From a virus (taxonomy: Duplodnaviria > Heunggongvirae > Uroviricota > Caudoviricetes), in IMG/VR virus record IMGVR_UViG_2645727868_000009: DNA of 34,486 bases. One strand, 5' to 3'. Shown in pieces: positions 17,061 to 24,539 of this stretch (positions are counted from its first letter, which is position 1; every line of letters begins with the position of its first letter). The position numbers and the translations under genes are program-made. The notes below the pieces were generated by a model. The model had not been told where the DNA came from and made no database searches. It saw only the letters and a list, made by a program, of their open reading frames with translations.

Positions 17061-18223
17061 GATGCCTCCGGGGCGTCCTGCATAACCCAGTCTGTCAGCA
17101 CGTCATCCTCAACCGTCACCACCGACCAGCGGTCGCCCGACTGTAACGCATACCGCCACGCGTTGCCGTCCTGCGTGACATGCTCCGCCCGTTCGATGGT
17201 CTGCTGCATCAGCACATAATCAGCGGTGGTCGGGGGCGCGTCTGTTGCACTGAGGCGCTTCATGACGTCAGCCGTAAGGTTTACCGTCTGCCGTGCAGCG
17301 CCCGTGGCGGCGACCTGTTCCGGTGAACGGATGGCCAGCGGATATCGCTGGCGCGCATCCAGATCGCTGACGTTCGCCATCCCCCGGGCAAAGTCCGGCC
17401 CGGTCAGGGTGCCAGTGACGTACTGGCGGGCGCTGCGGTAATCGTATTTTTCCAGCTCCGGTTGCCATGCCACCCGACCGGGATTAAAACCGAAGCCCGG
17501 GTCGGCGGTATACACGGAGCCGTCCGGCATCTTCAGCCCCATTGTTCTGATGGTCTGGCCCGGCTGGCCATATTCCTGCTCAACCTCAACCAGTCGCCCC
17601 TCGCTGCTCTGTACCGTCAGGCCATATTTCTCCACATCCGACGCCGAACGCGCCCGGATACGGCAGCGGCATCCGTATCCGTCCGGCGCGTAGAAATACT
17701 CCCAGACCGGGTCATCCGCCCGGGCGGTAAAACCGTTCAGGGCGGCGTGTTTCGGGCGGGTGTGAAGGTCCATCACCGCCACGCGCTCAAAATAAGGCCG
17801 GTCGGCCACGTTCGCCATCTGCTGCTGATAACGCCCGGCGTTATATGACGACTGAATATTGGTATCAAATATCGTGCGCAACCGGCGCGGCGTCAGCTGT
17901 CTGCCATGCAGTTCGCCGGTGTCCTCGTCCACAATCAGCTTTTTACCCAGCCAGCCTTTTGACTCCAGCAGTGGTTCCATTTGTGCTGCAAACTCCCGGA
18001 ACGTCCCGCCGTCAGCCAGTGCCGCCGTCAGGCCATCACGGATATCCTTCAGCACATCCAGTTTCAGCACGCCTGCCACCGTGAACGCCCGGGCGTTGGC
18101 GATATCCTTCACATCGTGCCAGCGGAAGCCGATAACGTATCCCTTGCTTTCGAAATACTTAATCGCTTCTTCCGGTTTCAGGGTGTACGCATAACCCAGG
18201 TCAACATCGTCAGCTGTCGGCAT
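17057..18223 (-). CDS. F: Minor head protein F (Mu gp30-like)
   Basis: 388-aa ORF, ATG start, follows portal gene; Mu F-like head morphogenesis family by gene order and size. Confidence 0.8.
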   Translation of the reverse strand: MPTADDVDLGYAYTLKPEEAIKYFESKGYVIGFRWHDVKDIANARAFTVAGVLKLDVLKDIRDGLTAALADGGTFREFAAQMEPLLESKGWLGKKLIVDEDTGELHGRQLTPRRLRTIFDTNIQSSYNAGRYQQQMANVADRPYFERVAVMDLHTRPKHAALNGFTARADDPVWEYFYAPDGYGCRCRIRARSASDVEKYGLTVQSSEGRLVEVEQEYGQPGQTIRTMGLKMPDGSVYTADPGFGFNPGRVAWQPELEKYDYRSARQYVTGTLTGPDFARGMANVSDLDARQRYPLAIRSPEQVAATGAARQTVNLTADVMKRLSATDAPPTTADYVLMQQTIERAEHVTQDGNAWRYALQSGDRWSVVTVEDDVLTDWVMQDAPEAS

Positions 18224-19805
18224 TTAGTCGCCCCCAGATATCCGCCACAAAGAATGCCTGTGTCAGCAACTGCCGCAGCGTGTCATCCGGCAGTTCCGGC
18301 CAGGCTTCCGCCAGTACGTTCATGGCCTCGTCCGCATCCCGGCCTTCCTGTATGGCCTGCACCAGCGGGGCCACCAGTTCGTTCATCCCCTGCGCGATGG
18401 CCTCTGCCGGAAGTTCTGCCCGGTCGATGGCGCGTTGTGCCGGGTCGTCCTCCTCGTTGTCCTGCTGACTGAGTGCTGCAACATTCAGCCGCTCACGCAG
18501 CTGGCTGAGGCCCGCCTGCACAGGGAGACGCTGTGCCACCGGCACCAGTACCTCTTCGCCGTCTTTCGGGGTGGGGATACCGGTTTTTTTGCGCACCCAC
18601 GACGCCGGGATATCCTTCATCCCCACATTGTTGAGCAACACGCTGACGGCTTCCGCCACACCCTTAATGTCAGCTTCCTGCTGCACATCAAACACCAGGC
18701 GCGGAAGACGGCGTGACGGGATATCCTGCCAGCCGTTGAGACTGGCCATCATCTGTATCAGACTGCTGAACATGCCGGACAGCTGGCGTGCATCAGCGGT
18801 CAGAATGTCGTGCCGGACCTCGTTATGGACATTACCCAGTGCGTTGGTGGAGGTTTTACCGTCGGCCTGGCTGGTCAGCGTACTGCCCAGAATCACTTTT
18901 GAGGTGGTACGCTCCGCCCATTCCACCATCGACATGAATGCCTCCGGTCCGCCGGAGGCAGCTTCCTTGAACTCGATTTCGTTACCCTGCGGCAGGGCTG
19001 CCACCGCTTCATGCCCCAGATTGACCAGCGCCTCAAGAATGTTGTCCCGGTCCGCGTCACTGGTGCCCTGTGCATAGTACGCAATGCGCGCTGGAAGACC
19101 GTAAATCTCCAGAAATTCCGCCATATCACGCAGCGCAAAGTTTTTAAACAGATACGGCCAGACCAGTACGCGGAACAGGCCGGATGAACCCAGGAACCCC
19201 GACCGGGCGTTGTAACGGTGAACCAGCCAGCCGAACGGCCACAATGCGGAACCGTCCTTACCGTCTTCCCCACGGTTGCCGTCATCCAGCCGGAGTTCGT
19301 CATTGTGTTCCGGCAGAGTTATGAACCAGTTATGCGGGCGCAGCGTCACCGCATCCGGTAACCATGTTTTATCCACGAACGCCCAGCTGATTTCCTGACA
19401 GCTGAAGCCGTAACCGACACTGCTCATCCCGTTGAGGATGATGTCCTCCATGTCCGGGATGCCGTGCAGCCATTCATCCACGGCGGCGGCCAGCTCCTTT
19501 TCTGCCTTCGAGGCATTGCGGGGCGGCTCCACCGACCAGTCCAGCGTCAGCAACGCTTTTTTGCGCTTTTCCATCTCGGCGAACAGATGGCCATCACGTT
19601 CTTCCATATCCGCAAACAGCATCGCCTGCGCCGGAAGATAACCGCGTTCGGCTGCTTCCAGAATACGCGGCAGTTTTCTGATGTTCAGACCACGGGACGG
19701 GTGATCGGGATAGATGCGCAGTCGTTCCGCCACTCTGACCGACTGCGTTGTTTTGAGTGCCTCACGTTTCAGCGGGCGTCCGTAAATATCAACAAGCTGT
19801 GCCAT
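18210..19805 (-). CDS. Portal protein (Mu gp29-like)
   Basis: 531-aa ORF, ATG start with AGGAGG upstream, acidic C-terminal region; directly downstream of terminase large subunit. Confidence 0.85.
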   Translation of the reverse strand: MAQLVDIYGRPLKREALKTTQSVRVAERLRIYPDHPSRGLNIRKLPRILEAAERGYLPAQAMLFADMEERDGHLFAEMEKRKKALLTLDWSVEPPRNASKAEKELAAAVDEWLHGIPDMEDIILNGMSSVGYGFSCQEISWAFVDKTWLPDAVTLRPHNWFITLPEHNDELRLDDGNRGEDGKDGSALWPFGWLVHRYNARSGFLGSSGLFRVLVWPYLFKNFALRDMAEFLEIYGLPARIAYYAQGTSDADRDNILEALVNLGHEAVAALPQGNEIEFKEAASGGPEAFMSMVEWAERTTSKVILGSTLTSQADGKTSTNALGNVHNEVRHDILTADARQLSGMFSSLIQMMASLNGWQDIPSRRLPRLVFDVQQEADIKGVAEAVSVLLNNVGMKDIPASWVRKKTGIPTPKDGEEVLVPVAQRLPVQAGLSQLRERLNVAALSQQDNEEDDPAQRAIDRAELPAEAIAQGMNELVAPLVQAIQEGRDADEAMNVLAEAWPELPDDTLRQLLTQAFFVADIWGRLNADS

Positions 19806-19808
19806 TAA

Positions 19809-21449
19809 TTACCATCCTCCTGAACCAAAACGCCCGCCACGGTCACGCCCGCTGCTGCGTGGGGTGTGTATCTGAAATTTTGCGCTGCGCGATACCGCCA
19901 GCGTCCACAGCATGTGCAGACAGTCCGGGCCATCATCGTGGTCGGCTTTGGGGTAGTGGCGCAGCTGGTCAATCAGCGTCTGATGTGCCGGACTGATGCG
20001 GATCAGGCCGTTGGCCATATGCGGCTGAAGGGACTCAATACGCAGCGCTTTATCCTCCAGCGGGATGACCGGCAGCGCCGGAACCGGCACGCCCAGCGCC
20101 GCCGAACGCTCAACCAGCACGGTACGCAGAAACTCCTGAAACTGGACGGACTCAAACGACCAGCACAGACAGTGGTATTCCCGCTGATACTTAATCACGT
20201 CTTCGATAAGTTTGTTTGGTAGACGTCGGCGGATATCGGCTTCAACCACATCCAGAATGCCGGTAAAGCGGTTAAAGCCCCCCACGAGAATGGCCGACGG
20301 GTCGCGGTTTTTGTTTTTCTTCCCGAGACTGGGGTCAACAGCACCATAAAACACCCATTCATCAAGACGGTTAACCCAGAACTTAATGCAGCCCGCAAAC
20401 AGCGCATCTTCACCGCTGACCGGGTCGTTCTGGTATTCAGAATCAAAGGTGTCATGACCGTCACGGACACGGATTTTCATCAGTGCCAGCAGGGGACGCG
20501 CCGCCCATGACACCACCGACCCGGCGAGCATGTCGGCTTCGTTCTGTCGGTAAAGTGCCTCTGCTGCTTCCGGCTGTTTGTTGCGGATGAGTTCTTCCCA
20601 CTCGTCCCACAGCTTCATATTGGCAGGCCACTGAATGACGGCCTTAAAACGGGCCGTTTTCCACATCGGGTTATTGAGTGTGCGCGACAGTACGGAGTCG
20701 TAATGCAGGATGGTTCCGATATAAATAATATCTGTTTTACCACCAGCCTCGCCCAGCGGCATCACGGTTTTGGTGAGCCAGTCATGCAGCTTGTCGCGCT
20801 GCTCCGGGTTACGCACCATCTCGTCGTTCTCGATGTCGTCGAGGATAACCAGGTCAGGACGGTACGGACCGTGGCGCAGACCACGCAGCTTTTTACCACT
20901 ACCGGCAACGGTCACCTTGATATTGTTGGCCGTGACGATGGTCCCCATACGCCAGACGCGACCCTGCCCGCACACTTCCGGGAAATCGTTTTTTAAACGG
21001 GGGTTAAATTCCAGTTCAGCCTTGATGGCTTCCAGCATCGGATAAGCCTGGTCGATACTGTCCATAATGATGACCGGATAATGCTTAATGGCCCGGATAA
21101 TGGTCCACAGGGTAAACAACTGAGTCACCAGCGTGGATTTTGCTTCACCACGGGGCGCGGCGATGGCGTCGTTCTCCGGGTCCGGGCTTGCCACAACCTG
21201 TGGCAGACGGCTGAACAGGTATTTATGCAGCTCGCTTTTTGCCGGGTTGCGGACGTAGTGCGGGAAATAGTTTTCGACAAAATAATCGTAGCCCGTCACC
21301 GGGTCACAGACTGCCGCCCGGCGGGCCTGTGTGGCCTGCGGGTTTACATCGAACCCCAGACATTCAGCCTCGATGGTCTGGCGGAGGTTGGCGATGTACT
21401 CCTGCAGGCTTCTCTGAAACTCTTTAATGGAAAGTTTACATTTTGCCAC
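19809..21449 (-). CDS. Terminase large subunit (Mu gp28-like)
   Basis: Long ORF with ATPase-like N-terminal region and nuclease-like C-terminal region. No in-frame ATG near the 5' end; candidate starts are GTG at 21447-21449 (AGGTG 4 nt upstream, directly after the methyltransferase stop) or TTG at 21506. Confidence 0.8.
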   Translation of the reverse strand: MAKCKLSIKEFQRSLQEYIANLRQTIEAECLGFDVNPQATQARRAAVCDPVTGYDYFVENYFPHYVRNPAKSELHKYLFSRLPQVVASPDPENDAIAAPRGEAKSTLVTQLFTLWTIIRAIKHYPVIIMDSIDQAYPMLEAIKAELEFNPRLKNDFPEVCGQGRVWRMGTIVTANNIKVTVAGSGKKLRGLRHGPYRPDLVILDDIENDEMVRNPEQRDKLHDWLTKTVMPLGEAGGKTDIIYIGTILHYDSVLSRTLNNPMWKTARFKAVIQWPANMKLWDEWEELIRNKQPEAAEALYRQNEADMLAGSVVSWAARPLLALMKIRVRDGHDTFDSEYQNDPVSGEDALFAGCIKFWVNRLDEWVFYGAVDPSLGKKNKNRDPSAILVGGFNRFTGILDVVEADIRRRLPNKLIEDVIKYQREYHCLCWSFESVQFQEFLRTVLVERSAALGVPVPALPVIPLEDKALRIESLQPHMANGLIRISPAHQTLIDQLRHYPKADHDDGPDCLHMLWTLAVSRSAKFQIHTPRSSGRDRGGRFGSGGW

Positions 21450-21450
21450 G

Positions 21451-22191
21451 TCACACCTGCGCTGCTTCTGCCTGCGCTTTTTCGATACGTGCGCAGGCGA
21501 TATCAAAATACTGGTTAGTCATTTCAATGCCGGTAAACCGTCCGCCACGGGCAAGTACCGGGATGGCGGTGGTGCCGCTTCCCATAAACGGATCGAGAAC
21601 GTGCGCATCCGGTGCCAGCGGTTTAACCAGCTCGGCCATCAGCTGAACCGGCTTTGCGGTCATGTGCAGTTTTTCGGACGGGACAACACGCTGCGTAATC
21701 ACACCCGGGAACGGGCCACCGTGCGGACATTTGTCGAGTTTTCCGTTGCTGCCCCAGACCACATACTCGGCCTGATGCCGGAAATAGCCGGTGTGTGGCG
21801 CACGGGAAGCCTGCGTTTTATCCCAGACAACAAGACCACGCCACAGCACACCACCGGCCTGAAAAACGTCGGTCATGGTGGGAAGCTGTCGCCAGTCACT
21901 GAACACCATGACATAACCACCGGGGCGCACAAGGCGGGCAGCCCCGGACATCCACAGGGTGCTCCAGTATGCCCAGCTGCGCTGGTCGCGGTTATCCCCG
22001 CTGAACTCGGCATACTGGGTGTGACCGACATACTTGTCCGAAGGGGCCATGCTGCGGTCTGATTTATGTGTGCCACCACTGCTGTAAGGCGGGTCGGTAA
22101 TGACGGCATCAAAACGTTCGGATAACGCCGGCAGCACATCAAGAACATCACCGCAATACAACGTTGCGTTACCAATAATCTGTTTTTGCAT
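21451..22191 (-). CDS. DNA methyltransferase (beta-class N6-adenine/N4-cytosine type)
   Basis: 246-aa ORF, ATG start. DPPY catalytic motif near N-terminus (VITDPPYSSGG) and FMGSGTT AdoMet-binding motif near C-terminus, i.e. motif IV before motif I. No neighbouring restriction endonuclease. Confidence 0.85.
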   Translation of the reverse strand: MQKQIIGNATLYCGDVLDVLPALSERFDAVITDPPYSSGGTHKSDRSMAPSDKYVGHTQYAEFSGDNRDQRSWAYWSTLWMSGAARLVRPGGYVMVFSDWRQLPTMTDVFQAGGVLWRGLVVWDKTQASRAPHTGYFRHQAEYVVWGSNGKLDKCPHGGPFPGVITQRVVPSEKLHMTAKPVQLMAELVKPLAPDAHVLDPFMGSGTTAIPVLARGGRFTGIEMTNQYFDIACARIEKAQAEAAQV

Positions 22192-22202
22192 TACAAATCC
22201 CG

Positions 22203-22220
22203 AATATCAGACGGCCCGGA
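22203..22220. other. GC-rich hairpin between gp27-like gene and methyltransferase gene
   Basis: GGCCCGG-AAAA-CCGGGCC perfect 7-bp stem in the 46-bp gap between the two genes. Confidence 0.5.
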
Positions 22221-22237
22221 AAACCGGGCCGCTGTGG

Positions 22238-22738
22238 TTAACTGAAATTATCCTCAAGCTCTTTAGCGAAGCCTTCGAGCACCTCAAGAAACGGGGCATA
22301 CTGTGCCGGGTGACGCTCCTTGATGAACGCGCCGAGCCGCTGCACCACTTCCAGTGCCGTGGCGAGCCGGTCGGTTTCCGGCAGGATTTTTTTGCTGCTG
22401 GCCACCGCCTTACTGAGACTGTCGGACAGACTCGCCAGCAGTTCGACGGACTCCTGCGGCGGGATGTCCGGGTTCTGGTTCAGCCGTTCAAGCGTCGTCT
22501 GACACTTCACCACCAGACTGATAAGCACGGTGCGGGCGACACTTTCCAGTCCGTCACCGGCGAGCGCGTGAGCGGCCCGCAGCTTGTCCCAGTCGTCGCC
22601 GTTCTTCATCGCCTGCGTTTTCCAGCGCCGCGCGGTGTCGTGCGGCACGGCGAACTTCATGGCGACGATATCCAGCGGAAGCTGGTCAAAGATGTACCCG
22701 TTACGGACTTTGTCCCTGATATCCTGTGACCACGCCAT
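22238..22738 (-). CDS. Mu gp27-like protein (putative terminase small subunit)
   Basis: 166-aa ORF, ATG start; position upstream of terminase large subunit; DUF1804-type protein recalled from Mu-like prophages. Confidence 0.6.
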   Translation of the reverse strand: MAWSQDIRDKVRNGYIFDQLPLDIVAMKFAVPHDTARRWKTQAMKNGDDWDKLRAAHALAGDGLESVARTVLISLVVKCQTTLERLNQNPDIPPQESVELLASLSDSLSKAVASSKKILPETDRLATALEVVQRLGAFIKERHPAQYAPFLEVLEGFAKELEDNFS

Positions 22739-22980: not shown

Positions 22981-23147
22981 TGCCGGATGCCGTCAATAAT
23001 CCGGCAGACCTGCGCCGCCGCGTCTAACAGCTGTCCCGTTCTGTTAATGTCTGTGCATCCCACCGGAAGCAACATCACCAGAAACAGGGCCAGAACACAG
23101 CGCGCGGCTTTACGTGGCGTTCTGTGGGTCCAGTGCTGACGCGTCAT
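22965..23147 (-). CDS. Putative small lipoprotein of the lysis cassette
   Basis: 60-aa ORF; ATG overlaps endolysin stop (ATGA); basic N-terminus then hydrophobic stretch ending LLPVGC (imperfect lipobox). Confidence 0.4.
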   Translation of the reverse strand: MTRQHWTHRTPRKAARCVLALFLVMLLPVGCTDINRTGQLLDAAAQVCRIIDGIRQCSQN

Positions 23148-23689
23148 ATCGCCACGCGCTCCTTCAGCCAGCCATAAACAAACGATTCGTTAGCCTCGCG
23201 TTTCTCCGCCAGTTCCAGATAGCGGTCCCCCTGCGTACAGTTCAGGGCCGTCAGCATCACCCGTTCACCGTCCTGACCGCGATTATTCAGGAAGGCGCGC
23301 AATGCACTGATGGTACGAGGCCCGATGCGTCCGTCTGCGTCCATATCCGGGTACAGCCTGCCGCGCAGATTGAACACATTCAGCCAGCGCTGAAGCATTC
23401 TGGACGCCACGGTTGGCCCCATATTCACACCGGTATCACACAGCTCTGCGGCAATATCAGGGGATAATGCGGCGACCTGGTCGAATCGCGGACCGTACCA
23501 GTAATCGGCTTCAAGGATGTCCAGCGCCTGCTCGCGGGTTAAATCGCGCATATCACCACGGTATCCGTGGGCACGGGCGACTTTTTCCGTAATGCCCCAT
23601 TTGGTCGGACCGCCCTTATCATCCGGGTGATTGACATAACCACCTTCTTTGCCCAGGACTTCATCAAAAATTTTATCTTTTGATTTCAT
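23144..23689 (-). CDS. Endolysin (GH108-like muramidase with peptidoglycan-binding C-terminal domain)
   Basis: 181-aa ORF, ATG start with GAGG upstream; N-terminal EGGYVNHPDDKGGPTKWGIT motif typical of GH108-family phage lysozymes. Confidence 0.75.
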   Translation of the reverse strand: MKSKDKIFDEVLGKEGGYVNHPDDKGGPTKWGITEKVARAHGYRGDMRDLTREQALDILEADYWYGPRFDQVAALSPDIAAELCDTGVNMGPTVASRMLQRWLNVFNLRGRLYPDMDADGRIGPRTISALRAFLNNRGQDGERVMLTALNCTQGDRYLELAEKREANESFVYGWLKERVAI

Positions 23690-24351: not shown

Positions 24352-24497
24352 GAGTTTCTCCTGTAAATCTGAGCCACTGACGGCCCGTAAATAACACCCG
24401 GTCAAAGGCACAGAATGACTTTTGCCGGGCGCTATCCCTTAAGGTGCCTTGTGGTCTGAGTGGACAGGGTAAACGGTATGCTGTGGTGGGTACTGCT

Positions 24498-24516
24498 GGG
24501 GGTGTTCAGCACCCCC
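24498..24516. promoter_or_regulatory. Palindromic motif GGGGGTG-TTCAG-CACCCCC upstream of the lysis genes (copy 2)
   Basis: Perfect 7-bp arms, same TTCAG spacer and same upstream GGGTACTG block as copy 1; located between the 95-aa gene stop and the holin start. Confidence 0.5.
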
Positions 24517-24539
24517 GGCAGGTTGATTATCTGGATGGG

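What the first reader, a model, noticed from the sequence alone, without database searches (positions are those of the whole stretch)
21451..22237. Orphan DNA methyltransferase inserted between the gp27-like and terminase large-subunit genes
The 246-aa protein has the catalytic DPPY motif ahead of the AdoMet-binding FMGSGTT motif, the order seen in beta-class amino-methyltransferases. No endonuclease partner is nearby. The gene is wedged into the packaging module, its stop abuts or overlaps the terminase start, and it is preceded by a GC hairpin (22203-22220). Canonical Mu has no gene in this position, so it looks like an acquired moron, plausibly protecting phage DNA from host restriction or altering host methylation in lysogens.
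Basis: partly seen in the sequence, partly recalled or inferred. Interest (0 to 1): 0.6.

Follow-up and report, generated by a model that had tools for sequence, protein, structure and literature searches.

The report
Prophage orphan DNA adenine methyltransferase gene
This is a real but ordinary phage-carried DNA methyltransferase with no restriction-enzyme partner, sitting in the late packaging operon of an E. coli Mu-like prophage; it most likely methylates new phage DNA before packaging so that the next host's restriction enzymes cannot cut it.

Summary
The 246-aa ORF at 21451-22191 (- strand) is a genuine beta-class amino-methyltransferase. It has DPPY at residues 33-36 ahead of FMGSGTT at 202-208, matches Pfam N6_N4_Mtase (82 bits), and its AlphaFold model matches CcrM, M1.HpyAVI and M.BceJIV. 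No restriction endonuclease is found anywhere in the prophage.

The "recently acquired moron" reading is only partly right:
- Orthologues (77-83% aa) occupy the same DUF1804-TerL junction in five other enterobacterial genera, and diverge in step with the flanking genes (dN/dS 0.04-0.12; GC matches the flanks).
- I found no promoter or terminator of its own. Its last two codons carry the TerL ribosome-binding site, and its stop lies 1 nt from the TerL GTG start.
- Of 55 E. coli genomes with this junction, 19 lack the gene. All six sampled share one scar that keeps the gene's last two codons and stop, which suggests one deletion spread by recombination.
- The hairpin belongs to the backbone, not to the gene.
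- The published methylome of lysogen E2348/69 shows no extra motif, so the enzyme is probably silent in lysogens and expressed late.

The target sequence is unknown. This is a routine, already annotated kind of gene, of low interest.

The parts
21451..22191 (-). Orphan beta-class DNA amino-methyltransferase CDS (246 aa; identical to RefSeq WP_021536553.1 in strain Ec55; E2348/69 copy is WP_001171800.1)
   Evidence: ORF list. Pfam N6_N4_Mtase 82.3 bits. PHROG 67. PADLOC MTase_II 1.6e-64. PDB sequence hit to M1.HpyAVI, 5e-15. AF2 model pLDDT 85 with Foldseek top hits CcrM, M1.HpyAVI and M.BceJIV. dN/dS 0.04-0.12 against orthologues.
22084..22095 (-). Motif IV, catalytic DPPY (residues 33-36), within the invariant block TDPPYSSG
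   Evidence: Sequence. Invariant in a 40-sequence family alignment.
21568..21588 (-). Motif I, AdoMet-binding FMGSGTT (residues 202-208). F-M-G-S is invariant; the family consensus is FMGSAST.
21772..21807 (-). Segment SRAPHTGYFRHQ (residues 129-140), largely invariant across the family and including the only stretch modelled with very low confidence (131-137). It is a candidate DNA-contact or target-recognition loop.
   Evidence: Invariant columns R130, P132, H133, G135, Y136, R138, H139, Q140. pLDDT below 50 at residues 131-137. The role is inferred by analogy with the disordered recognition regions of solved beta-class enzymes (PMC7544214).
21454..21458 (-). Shine-Dalgarno-like AGGTG for TerL, embedded in the last two codons (Q245, V246) of the MTase
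   Evidence: Conserved as AGGTG, AGGAG, GGGTG or AGGGG in orthologous loci, and retained in the MTase-less alleles.
21447..21449 (-). GTG start of TerL, 1 nt after the MTase TGA stop (21451-21453)
   Evidence: PGAP annotation of identical and near-identical records. The sequence GTG-GCA-AAA is conserved across genera.
21460..22202 (-). Segment present in MTase-plus prophages and replaced by 7 nt (TGTATAC or TGCATAC) in MTase-minus E. coli prophages; net difference 736 nt
   Evidence: Alignment A1. The same scar is found in 6 of 6 sampled MTase-minus loci. Span lengths of 1465 vs 2201 nt in 19 vs 36 genomes.
22208..22234 (-). Conserved GC-rich hairpin (CAG-CGGCCCGG-UUUU-CCGGGCCG-U-CUG) just after the DUF1804 stop. 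It is a backbone element, not part of the MTase cassette.
   Evidence: RNA fold -22.3 kcal/mol, z = -2.67. Present with and without the MTase. The GGCCCGG/CCGGGCC core is conserved in window/E. coli, Yersinia, Citrobacter, Intestinirhabdus, Buttiauxella and Trabulsiella, with variable loops. The scan does not call it terminator-like.
22238..22738 (-). Upstream neighbour: DUF1804 protein. It is annotated as a DNA-binding protein in D3112-type phages and occupies the position of Mu gp27 (annotated as the small terminase subunit).
   Evidence: Pfam DUF1804 1.8e-52. PHROG 756. No similarity to Mu gp27.
19809..21449 (-). Downstream neighbour: terminase large subunit (546 aa from the GTG start)
   Evidence: PHROG 38, 5.5e-143. 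NCBIfam TIGR01630. PGAP terL.

Best explanation
The gene encodes a functional, restriction-enzyme-less (orphan) beta-class DNA methyltransferase. The DPPY motif suggests it makes N6-methyladenine. It is a long-standing accessory gene of one enterobacterial lineage of Mu-like transposable prophages.

Proposed mechanism:
1. The gene lies inside the late lysis-packaging operon, with no expression signals of its own that I could detect.
2. It is translationally coupled to the terminase large subunit, because its last two codons form the TerL ribosome-binding site.
3. It is therefore made only during lytic growth, together with the packaging machinery.
4. It then methylates replicated phage DNA before headful packaging, so that progeny DNA is protected from restriction in the next host. 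In effect it does the job that Mom does for Mu, and this prophage has no mom gene.
5. In lysogens it is silent.

The gene is dispensable. One deletion allele that keeps the TerL ribosome-binding site circulates among E. coli prophages by recombination.

Shown here: methyltransferase identity and fold, orphan status, conserved synteny, purifying selection, the presence/absence polymorphism, and the coupling anatomy.

Inferred, not shown: late-only expression, adenine as the target base, anti-restriction as the selective benefit, and deletion rather than insertion as the direction of the polymorphism.
For: Identity.

Orphan status.

No mom at the prophage end.

Same junction in other genera, with MTase identity of 77-83% tracking DUF1804 (74-86%), TerL (82-91%) and portal (71-77%).

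Purifying selection: dN/dS 0.037-0.117 for the E2348/69 and cross-genus comparisons.

GC like the flanks.

No sigma-70-like promoter on the coding strand between 21000 and 25300, and no terminator after the gene.

Stop, 1-2 nt, then GTG, with the Shine-Dalgarno sequence inside the MTase 3' end, in every orthologous locus examined.

The lysogen E2348/69 carries the gene (98.5% DNA identity), yet its PacBio and ONT methylomes show only GATC, two Type I motifs and CCWGG: PMC8495745.

Precedent for prophage beta-class MTases that are silent in lysogens and proposed to act against restriction: M.EcoGII, PMC5778455.

Relatives at 43-62% identity are all in phages or prophages, without restriction enzymes, and mostly in late-gene or packaging contexts.

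The deletion allele keeps ...CAG GTG TGA C GTG in frame. The Trabulsiella MTase-less junction keeps TTCAGGGGTAA, which matches the 3' end of the Buttiauxella MTase.
Against: - No direct evidence of activity, target sequence or timing of expression.
- The promoter scan covers only sigma-70 consensus sites and would miss Mor/C-dependent or weak internal promoters.
- The E2348/69 methylome cannot exclude a GATC-specific enzyme masked by Dam.
- The E. coli scar is not a clean one-step deletion of the present allele: 7 nt upstream also differ and 3 nt (TAC) are unmatched. The direction of the event therefore remains an inference.
- Only 2 of 78 species-level DUF1804 loci carry the gene, so it was acquired at some point.
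- N4-cytosine specificity cannot be excluded from sequence alone.
Confidence: 0.7

Rival explanations
1. A true moron or lysogenic-conversion gene: expressed from the repressed prophage, it adds a methylation motif to the host chromosome and changes host gene expression or protects the host genome.
For: Presence/absence polymorphism among near-identical prophages. Other orphan MTases such as Dam and CcrM have regulatory roles (PMC7544214).
Against: The methylome of lysogen E2348/69 shows no extra Type II motif. No promoter-like site and no own terminator were found. GC content is not atypical. The gene is embedded in, and translationally coupled within, the late operon.
Confidence: 0.08
2. A packaging-linked role: methylation of a pac or end-recognition site, or of DNA as it is packaged, regulates terminase action, as Dam methylation does at the P1 pac site. 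That would explain the conserved position next to TerL.
For: Tight coupling to TerL is conserved across six genera. Relatives sit next to terminase or portal genes in HK97-like and P2-like prophages.
Against: Nineteen E. coli genomes carry prophages without the gene, and in the seven examined loci the annotated TerL and DUF1804 genes are complete. The Salmonella homologue sits between holin and endolysin, not next to TerL. 76 of 78 DUF1804-type prophages lack it. The junction holds unrelated cargo in other lineages, so position is explained by a permissive slot.
Confidence: 0.07
3. A decaying or inactive remnant, for example of a former restriction-modification system, with no present function.
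For: No extra methylation motif is detected in a lysogen. The gene has been lost in a third of E. coli carriers.
Against: dN/dS is 0.04-0.12 over large synonymous divergence (dS 1.3-2.7). All catalytic and AdoMet motifs are invariant. The gene is annotated as a complete CDS in every examined record that carries it and is listed as a DNA methyltransferase under all 36 matches. The structure model is confident.
Confidence: 0.03

Closest known systems
Phage- and prophage-borne orphan beta-class N6-adenine methyltransferases (Pfam PF01555; PHROG 67), e.g. Bordetella phage BPP-1 Bpm (52% identity) and the MTase of E. coli P2-like phage Chuche (55%)
   Same: Same family by sequence over the full length. 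Same size (about 245-265 aa), same motif order, no endonuclease partner, and carried by temperate phages in late-gene or accessory positions.
   Different: Here the gene is fused into the DUF1804-TerL junction of a transposable (Mu-like) prophage and coupled to TerL. The P2-like relatives instead have a Com zinc-ribbon ORF overlapping the MTase start. I found no determined specificity for any of these.
M.EcoGII, the non-specific adenine MTase of E. coli O104:H4 prophages (PMC5778455)
   Same: Beta-class, DPPY then FxGxG. Prophage-encoded and not expressed in the lysogen. Proposed to be switched on at induction to defeat restriction.
   Different: M.EcoGII is 349 aa, against 246 aa here. Sequence similarity was not tested because the sequence was not at hand. 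Its non-specificity has been demonstrated; nothing is known about the specificity of this enzyme.
M1.HpyAVI (PDB 5HFJ/5HEK), M.BceJIV (8URK) and CcrM (6PBD)
   Same: Closest solved structures by sequence (5e-15) and by fold (Foldseek E 1e-15 to 1e-14, TM up to about 0.8). M1.HpyAVI is similarly small (232 aa).
   Different: Only about 20-23% identity. These are cellular enzymes, either restriction-modification-associated or regulatory. Their target sequences cannot be transferred at this distance.
Mu Mom (with its Com/C control)
   Same: Functional analogy only: a late, tightly controlled, dispensable phage function that modifies adenines in progeny DNA to evade restriction. This prophage lacks mom.
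   Different: Chemistry and fold are unrelated. From general knowledge, Mom is not an AdoMet methyltransferase, and mom lies at the right end of Mu under Com translational control.

Membership tests
Beta-class DNA amino-methyltransferase (Pfam PF01555 N6_N4_Mtase) | Catalytic motif IV (D/N/S)PP(Y/F) lies N-terminal to AdoMet motif I FxGxG | tested here: met
   DPPY at residues 33-36; FMGSG at 202-206. Both blocks are conserved in 40 homologues.
Beta-class DNA amino-methyltransferase (Pfam PF01555 N6_N4_Mtase) | Profile score above the curated family threshold | tested here: met
   82.3 bits against a gathering score of 26.7.
Beta-class DNA amino-methyltransferase (Pfam PF01555 N6_N4_Mtase) | Fold of solved beta-class DNA MTases | tested here: met
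   AF2 mean pLDDT 85.1, pTM 0.85. Foldseek top hits are CcrM, M1.HpyAVI, M.BceJIV, TTHA0409, M.MboIIA, M.PvuII and M.RsrI, all at probability 1.00.
Beta-class DNA amino-methyltransferase (Pfam PF01555 N6_N4_Mtase) | AdoMet-dependent methyl transfer to DNA, and the identity of the target base and sequence | not testable with these tools
   Adenine is inferred from D (rather than S) in motif IV, from general knowledge of the family. No characterised close relative was found.
Orphan (solitary) methyltransferase | No cognate restriction endonuclease encoded nearby | tested here: met
   All 51 CDS of the identical prophage were scanned. Only the MTase hits restriction-modification models in PADLOC, and Pfam and PGAP show only phage functions. 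Only the top 25 of 44 PADLOC families were displayed.
Orphan (solitary) methyltransferase | No unlinked endonuclease of the same specificity in the host | not testable with these tools
   The specificity is unknown.
Moron (extra phage gene forming its own transcription unit, expressed from the prophage) | Present in some, and absent from other, closely related phage genomes | tested here: met
   36 genomes with and 19 without the gene among 55 E. coli genomes whose junction flanks are 95-100% identical.
Moron (extra phage gene forming its own transcription unit, expressed from the prophage) | Own promoter upstream and own terminator downstream | tested here: not met
   No sigma-70-like site on the coding strand between 21000 and 25300. 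No hairpin after the gene, and only 1 nt to the TerL start. The upstream hairpin is also present in alleles lacking the gene. The promoter test is weak because it is consensus-only.
Moron (extra phage gene forming its own transcription unit, expressed from the prophage) | Base composition differing from the surrounding genes | tested here: not met
   GC 57.4%, against 56.0% (TerL), 60.1% (DUF1804) and 59.2% (portal).
Moron (extra phage gene forming its own transcription unit, expressed from the prophage) | Expression in the lysogen | tested here: inconclusive
   Indirect only. The E2348/69 lysogen methylome has no motif attributable to the gene (PMC8495745). A GATC-type target would be masked by Dam.
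M.EcoGII-like non-specific adenine MTases | Close sequence relationship to M.EcoGII (349 aa) and methylation of adenine in any sequence context | not tested
Its length differs by about 100 residues. Only the behaviour (prophage-borne, silent in the lysogen) is similar.

The most novel reading that the evidence does not exclude
This compact 246-aa enzyme, whose only very-low-confidence stretch lies in a largely invariant loop where a recognition domain would be expected, may be a very-low-specificity or non-specific adenine methyltransferase, a 'mini M.EcoGII'. It would give broad protection against many restriction systems and would be toxic if expressed outside the lytic burst. That would explain three things: it is locked into late operons in Mu-like prophages, it is placed under Com-type translational control in P2-like phages, and it leaves no motif in lysogen methylomes.
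Probability: 0.12. Interest if true: 0.55.

Novelty: already known. Interest (0 to 1): 0.22.

Why it matters
Phage-borne orphan methyltransferases are a well-known counter-measure to restriction. This one is already annotated as a DNA methyltransferase in RefSeq (WP_021536553.1, WP_001171800.1), including in the reference EPEC strain E2348/69.

What this analysis adds is modest:
- A natural pair of near-isogenic prophage alleles, with and without the gene, that could be used directly to test its benefit.
- Evidence that the DUF1804-TerL junction of transposable phages is a general slot for cargo genes.
- A reminder that such enzymes are invisible in lysogen methylomes.

It would matter more only if the enzyme proved to have unusually broad specificity.

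Tried and rejected
- Near-identity DNA search in the phage collection found nothing. The element is known only as a prophage.
- Attempts to assign a target sequence failed. The closest annotated phage relatives (BPP-1 Bpm, Chuche, Smp131, mycobacteriophages) are at most 55% identical, and I found no specificity for them. PDB relatives are only about 20% identical. Literature searches for an E2348/69 or Mu-like prophage MTase characterisation gave only the G3 methylome paper. The orphan-MTase review PMC3837797 is not held.
- I considered the hairpin as the gene's own regulatory element or terminator and rejected that. It is present in alleles without the gene, and the scan does not call it terminator-like.
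- I considered the empty E. coli alleles as the ancestral pre-insertion site and judged this less likely. They retain the MTase's last two codons and stop in frame, and five other genera carry the gene.
- NJ trees of TerL, DUF1804 and junction-proximal sequence did not separate alleles with and without the gene. The trees are star-like and interleaved, so no clean clade argument is possible.
- I tried to pinpoint which junction ORF carries the Acb2/Tad1 hairpin domain. Twenty candidates were scanned without finding it.

Full report

Yes. The - strand carries an ATG-initiated 246-codon ORF at 21451-22191. Its product has DPPY at residues 33-36 and FMGSGTT at 202-208, which is motif IV ahead of motif I, the beta-class order.

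- It scores 82.3 bits on Pfam N6_N4_Mtase against a 26.7-bit cut-off.
- It scores 1e-55 on PHROG 67 'DNA methyltransferase' and 1.6e-64, full length, on a PADLOC Type II MTase model.
- The nearest solved proteins by sequence are M1.HpyAVI (5e-15), M.BceJIV and CcrM.
- An AlphaFold2 model built on 40 homologues is confident (pLDDT 85, pTM 0.85). Foldseek returns only beta-class DNA amino-MTases at the top.

**2. Context**

The window is an E. coli Mu-like transposable prophage.

- It is 100% identical over the queried 2.2-kb junction to strain Ec55 and 98.5% identical to E2348/69.
- The prophage is inserted in ypdF in Ec55 and in eutC in E2348/69.
- Gene order on the - strand is Mor, holins, endolysin, small ORFs, DUF1804 (22238-22738), MTase, TerL (19809-21449), portal (18210-19805), then head and tail genes.
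- Every one of the 51 annotated CDS of the identical prophage was scanned with Pfam and PADLOC. Only the MTase hits restriction-modification models.
- The prophage ends right after the tail-fibre gene, with no mom.

The gene is therefore an orphan.

Phage Mu does have gp27 and gp28 adjacent, with no gene between them. However, the DUF1804 protein shows no BLAST similarity to Mu gp27, and tblastn with the window's TerL found no match in a Mu stretch that includes gp28. The packaging genes are of the D3112 type (51% and 60% identity).

**3. Anatomy of the junction**

*The TerL start.* The conserved TerL start is GTG 21447-21449, both by PGAP annotation and by conservation. On the coding strand the sequence reads ...CAG GTG TGA C GTG GCA AAA. 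The MTase stop is thus 1 nt from the TerL start, and the TerL Shine-Dalgarno sequence (AGGTG) is formed by the MTase's last two codons.

*Conservation of the arrangement.* The same layout recurs in the orthologous loci of the five other genera: a Shine-Dalgarno sequence inside the MTase 3' end, then the stop, then 1-2 nt, then GTG.

*The hairpin.* The hairpin lies at 22208-22234 (-22.3 kcal/mol, z = -2.7), directly after the DUF1804 stop. Its GGCCCGG/CCGGGCC core is conserved in five other genera with varying loops. It is present whether or not the MTase is there. The scan does not class it as an intrinsic terminator, and finds no sigma-70-like promoter on the coding strand between 21000 and 25300.

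The gene therefore has no expression signals of its own that I could detect.

**4. Is it a recent insertion?**

*Polymorphism within E. coli.* Among 5426 complete E. coli genomes, 55 carry this junction: 36 with the MTase and 19 without. All six sampled empty alleles share one scar. After the hairpin they read TCTGATATT-TG[T/C]ATAC-CAGGTGTGAC-GTG. They keep the last two MTase codons and the stop, in frame with the TTT GTA that precedes the MTase ATG.

*Linkage to flanking alleles.* Flanking alleles do not sort by MTase status.
- The same DUF1804 protein, WP_000312575.1, flanks both kinds of allele.
- The endolysin module (GH108 or M15) varies independently of MTase status.
- NJ trees interleave the two kinds of allele.

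*Orthologues in other genera.* Orthologues at 77-83% identity occupy the same junction in Yersinia, Citrobacter, Serratia, Intestinirhabdus and Buttiauxella prophages. Their divergence is like that of DUF1804 (74-86%), TerL (82-91%) and portal (71-77%). dN/dS is 0.04-0.12, and GC equals that of the flanks.

*A second empty junction.* A Trabulsiella prophage lacks the gene but keeps TTCAGGGGTAA before the TerL start. That string matches the 3' end of the Buttiauxella MTase.

*Reading.* I take this as an old acquisition in the ancestor of this enterobacterial sub-lineage, followed by vertical co-evolution with the backbone. Occasional deletions preserved the TerL ribosome-binding site, and one such allele now spreads by homologous recombination in E. 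coli. The direction of the event is an inference, at roughly 75%.

**5. How general is the position?**

I surveyed 78 DUF1804+TerL loci, one genome per species.

| DUF1804-TerL gap | Number of loci |
|---|---|
| under 60 nt | 19 |
| 60-149 nt | 6 |
| 150-399 nt | 29 |
| 400 nt or more | 24 |

Only 2 of the 78 loci hold this MTase. The rest hold unrelated small genes, often on the opposite strand as with D3112 orf25. Pfam hits among them include Phage_gp49_66, DUF6527, KTSC, Rha, HicB-like and one Acb2/Tad1 hairpin domain.

The junction is therefore a permissive cargo slot. The MTase is neither a universal core packaging component nor unique to this site.

- In Salmonella Mu-like prophages a 62% homologue sits between holin and endolysin.
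- In an E. coli HK97-like prophage a 61% homologue sits between the lysis genes and HNH-TerS-TerL.
- In P2-like phages homologues lie next to portal or terminase genes or at the prophage end, and are preceded by a Com zinc-ribbon ORF.

All these contexts are phage, and none includes an endonuclease.

**6. Function**

The published PacBio and nanopore methylomes of E2348/69, which carries the gene, show only four motifs: GATC, YTCAN6GTNG, CYYAN7RTGA and CCWGG (PMC8495745). There is no motif attributable to a Type II orphan enzyme. Either the gene is silent in the lysogen or its target is hidden under Dam.

Silence fits its position in the late operon. It also matches the documented behaviour of M.EcoGII, a prophage beta-class MTase that is not expressed in its lysogen, is harmful when expressed constitutively, and is proposed to act at induction against restriction (PMC5778455).

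My best explanation (0.7) is late, TerL-coupled expression of an adenine methyltransferase that marks progeny DNA before packaging, as a dispensable anti-restriction function. In effect it is analogous to Mom, which this prophage lacks.

Rivals:
- Lysogenic epigenetic conversion (0.08).
- A packaging-regulatory role (0.07). This is weakened because prophages lacking the gene still carry complete annotated TerL and DUF1804 genes in the loci examined, and because homologues sit at other positions.
- An inactive remnant (0.03). This is contradicted by strong purifying selection.

The target sequence remains unknown. Adenine is inferred only from the D in DPPY.

**7. Novelty and verdict**

This is an ordinary member of a well-known class, phage-borne orphan PF01555 methyltransferases. 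RefSeq already annotates it as a DNA methyltransferase in dozens of genomes.

Orphan, accessory and probably anti-restriction all stand. The gene is not a self-contained, recently inserted moron, it probably does not remodel the lysogen's methylome, and the empty alleles look like deletions.
- Interest is low (0.22).

The most novel reading still open is a compact low-specificity 'mini-EcoGII', which would explain the tight late or Com control across the family. I give it about 0.12. It could be tested by one cloning-plus-SMRT experiment.

Noticed in passing
window 22208-22234 (- strand); same element in L012, L013, L020, L021, L022: A GC-rich hairpin directly after the DUF1804 stop is conserved across six enterobacterial genera. 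The stem core GGCCCGG/CCGGGCC is invariant, the loops vary (UUUU, UUAU, ACCU, ...), and there is one compensatory C-G to U-A change at the stem base in Yersinia. It is present with or without the MTase. Its function is unknown; it could be an attenuator, an RNA-stability element or a protein-binding site.
   Followed up: partly
L020-L099, between about 5500 and the TerL start; D3112 L007 3503-4039: The DUF1804-TerL junction of transposable prophages is a variable cargo slot. 53 of 78 species-level loci have 150-1850 nt inserted, often with ORFs on the opposite strand. Pfam hits include Phage_gp49_66 (L044, L059), DUF6527 (L046), HicB-like (L076), KTSC, Rha and one Acb2/Tad1 hairpin domain (an anti-CBASS/anti-Thoeris family) whose locus I could not pinpoint.
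   Followed up: partly
L017, L018, L019: 4001-4753: In Salmonella Mu-like prophages a 62%-identical homologue of the MTase sits between the holin and the endolysin, overlapping both. The DUF1804-TerL junction of these prophages holds other small ORFs instead. The same enzyme family has therefore been slotted into different places in the late operon.
   Followed up: partly
L001 5778-5984 (phage Chuche); L113 3356-3541 (Yersinia kristensenii prophage); L109 1341-1598 (Smp131): In P2-like phages the closest homologues (46-56% identity) are preceded by a Com zinc-ribbon ORF that overlaps the MTase start (Pfam Zn_ribbon_Com, 1e-11 in Chuche). Smp131 has a gene annotated 'translational regulator' in that position. 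This is a Com-MTase module, analogous to Mu com-mom but controlling an ordinary amino-methyltransferase.
   Followed up: partly
L006 (strain RM9088) 3652-4392 and 4725-7204: The RM9088 MTase allele is mosaic. Residues about 52-110 are replaced by a diverged segment resembling the Citrobacter/Serratia alleles (dN/dS 0.28 against the window). An IS66 element replaces the DUF1804 gene upstream.
   Followed up: no
window about 23144-23689, compared with L101, L105 and L107 at about 3126-4239: Near-identical prophages swap the endolysin module (GH108 against M15 metallopeptidase) independently of MTase presence. This shows module-level recombination within this prophage population.
   Followed up: no
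window 19809-21506 and 22238-22738: The 'Mu-like' prophage is a hybrid in family terms. Portal, protease, major head and many tail proteins hit Mu Pfam families. The DUF1804 protein shows no BLAST similarity to Mu gp27, and tblastn with the window's TerL found no match in a Mu stretch that includes gp28. Both are closest to D3112-type phages. The mechanical TerL ORF extends to a TTG at 21506, but the conserved start is GTG 21449.
   Followed up: partly
NZ_OZ547097.1 952-3152 and NZ_OZ547049.1 13897-16097: Two copies of the MTase-carrying junction lie on 249-kb records counted as plasmids. Some genomes have two copies. Chromosomal insertion sites differ (ypdF in Ec55, eutC in E2348/69), consistent with active transposition.
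   Followed up: no
protein P0025: A 217-aa E. coli protein combines a Phage_holin_3_7 domain with the C-terminal 70% of this MTase at 100% identity, and is seen on 18 contigs. It is probably a deletion in a degraded prophage that fuses the holin to the MTase.
   Followed up: no
window 24493-24521: A strong 13-bp hairpin (CTGCTGGGGGTG-TTC-AGCACCCCCGGCAG) lies in the gap between the 95-aa ORF downstream of Mor and the first holin gene. It may mark the boundary or control region of the late lysis-packaging operon.
   Followed up: no
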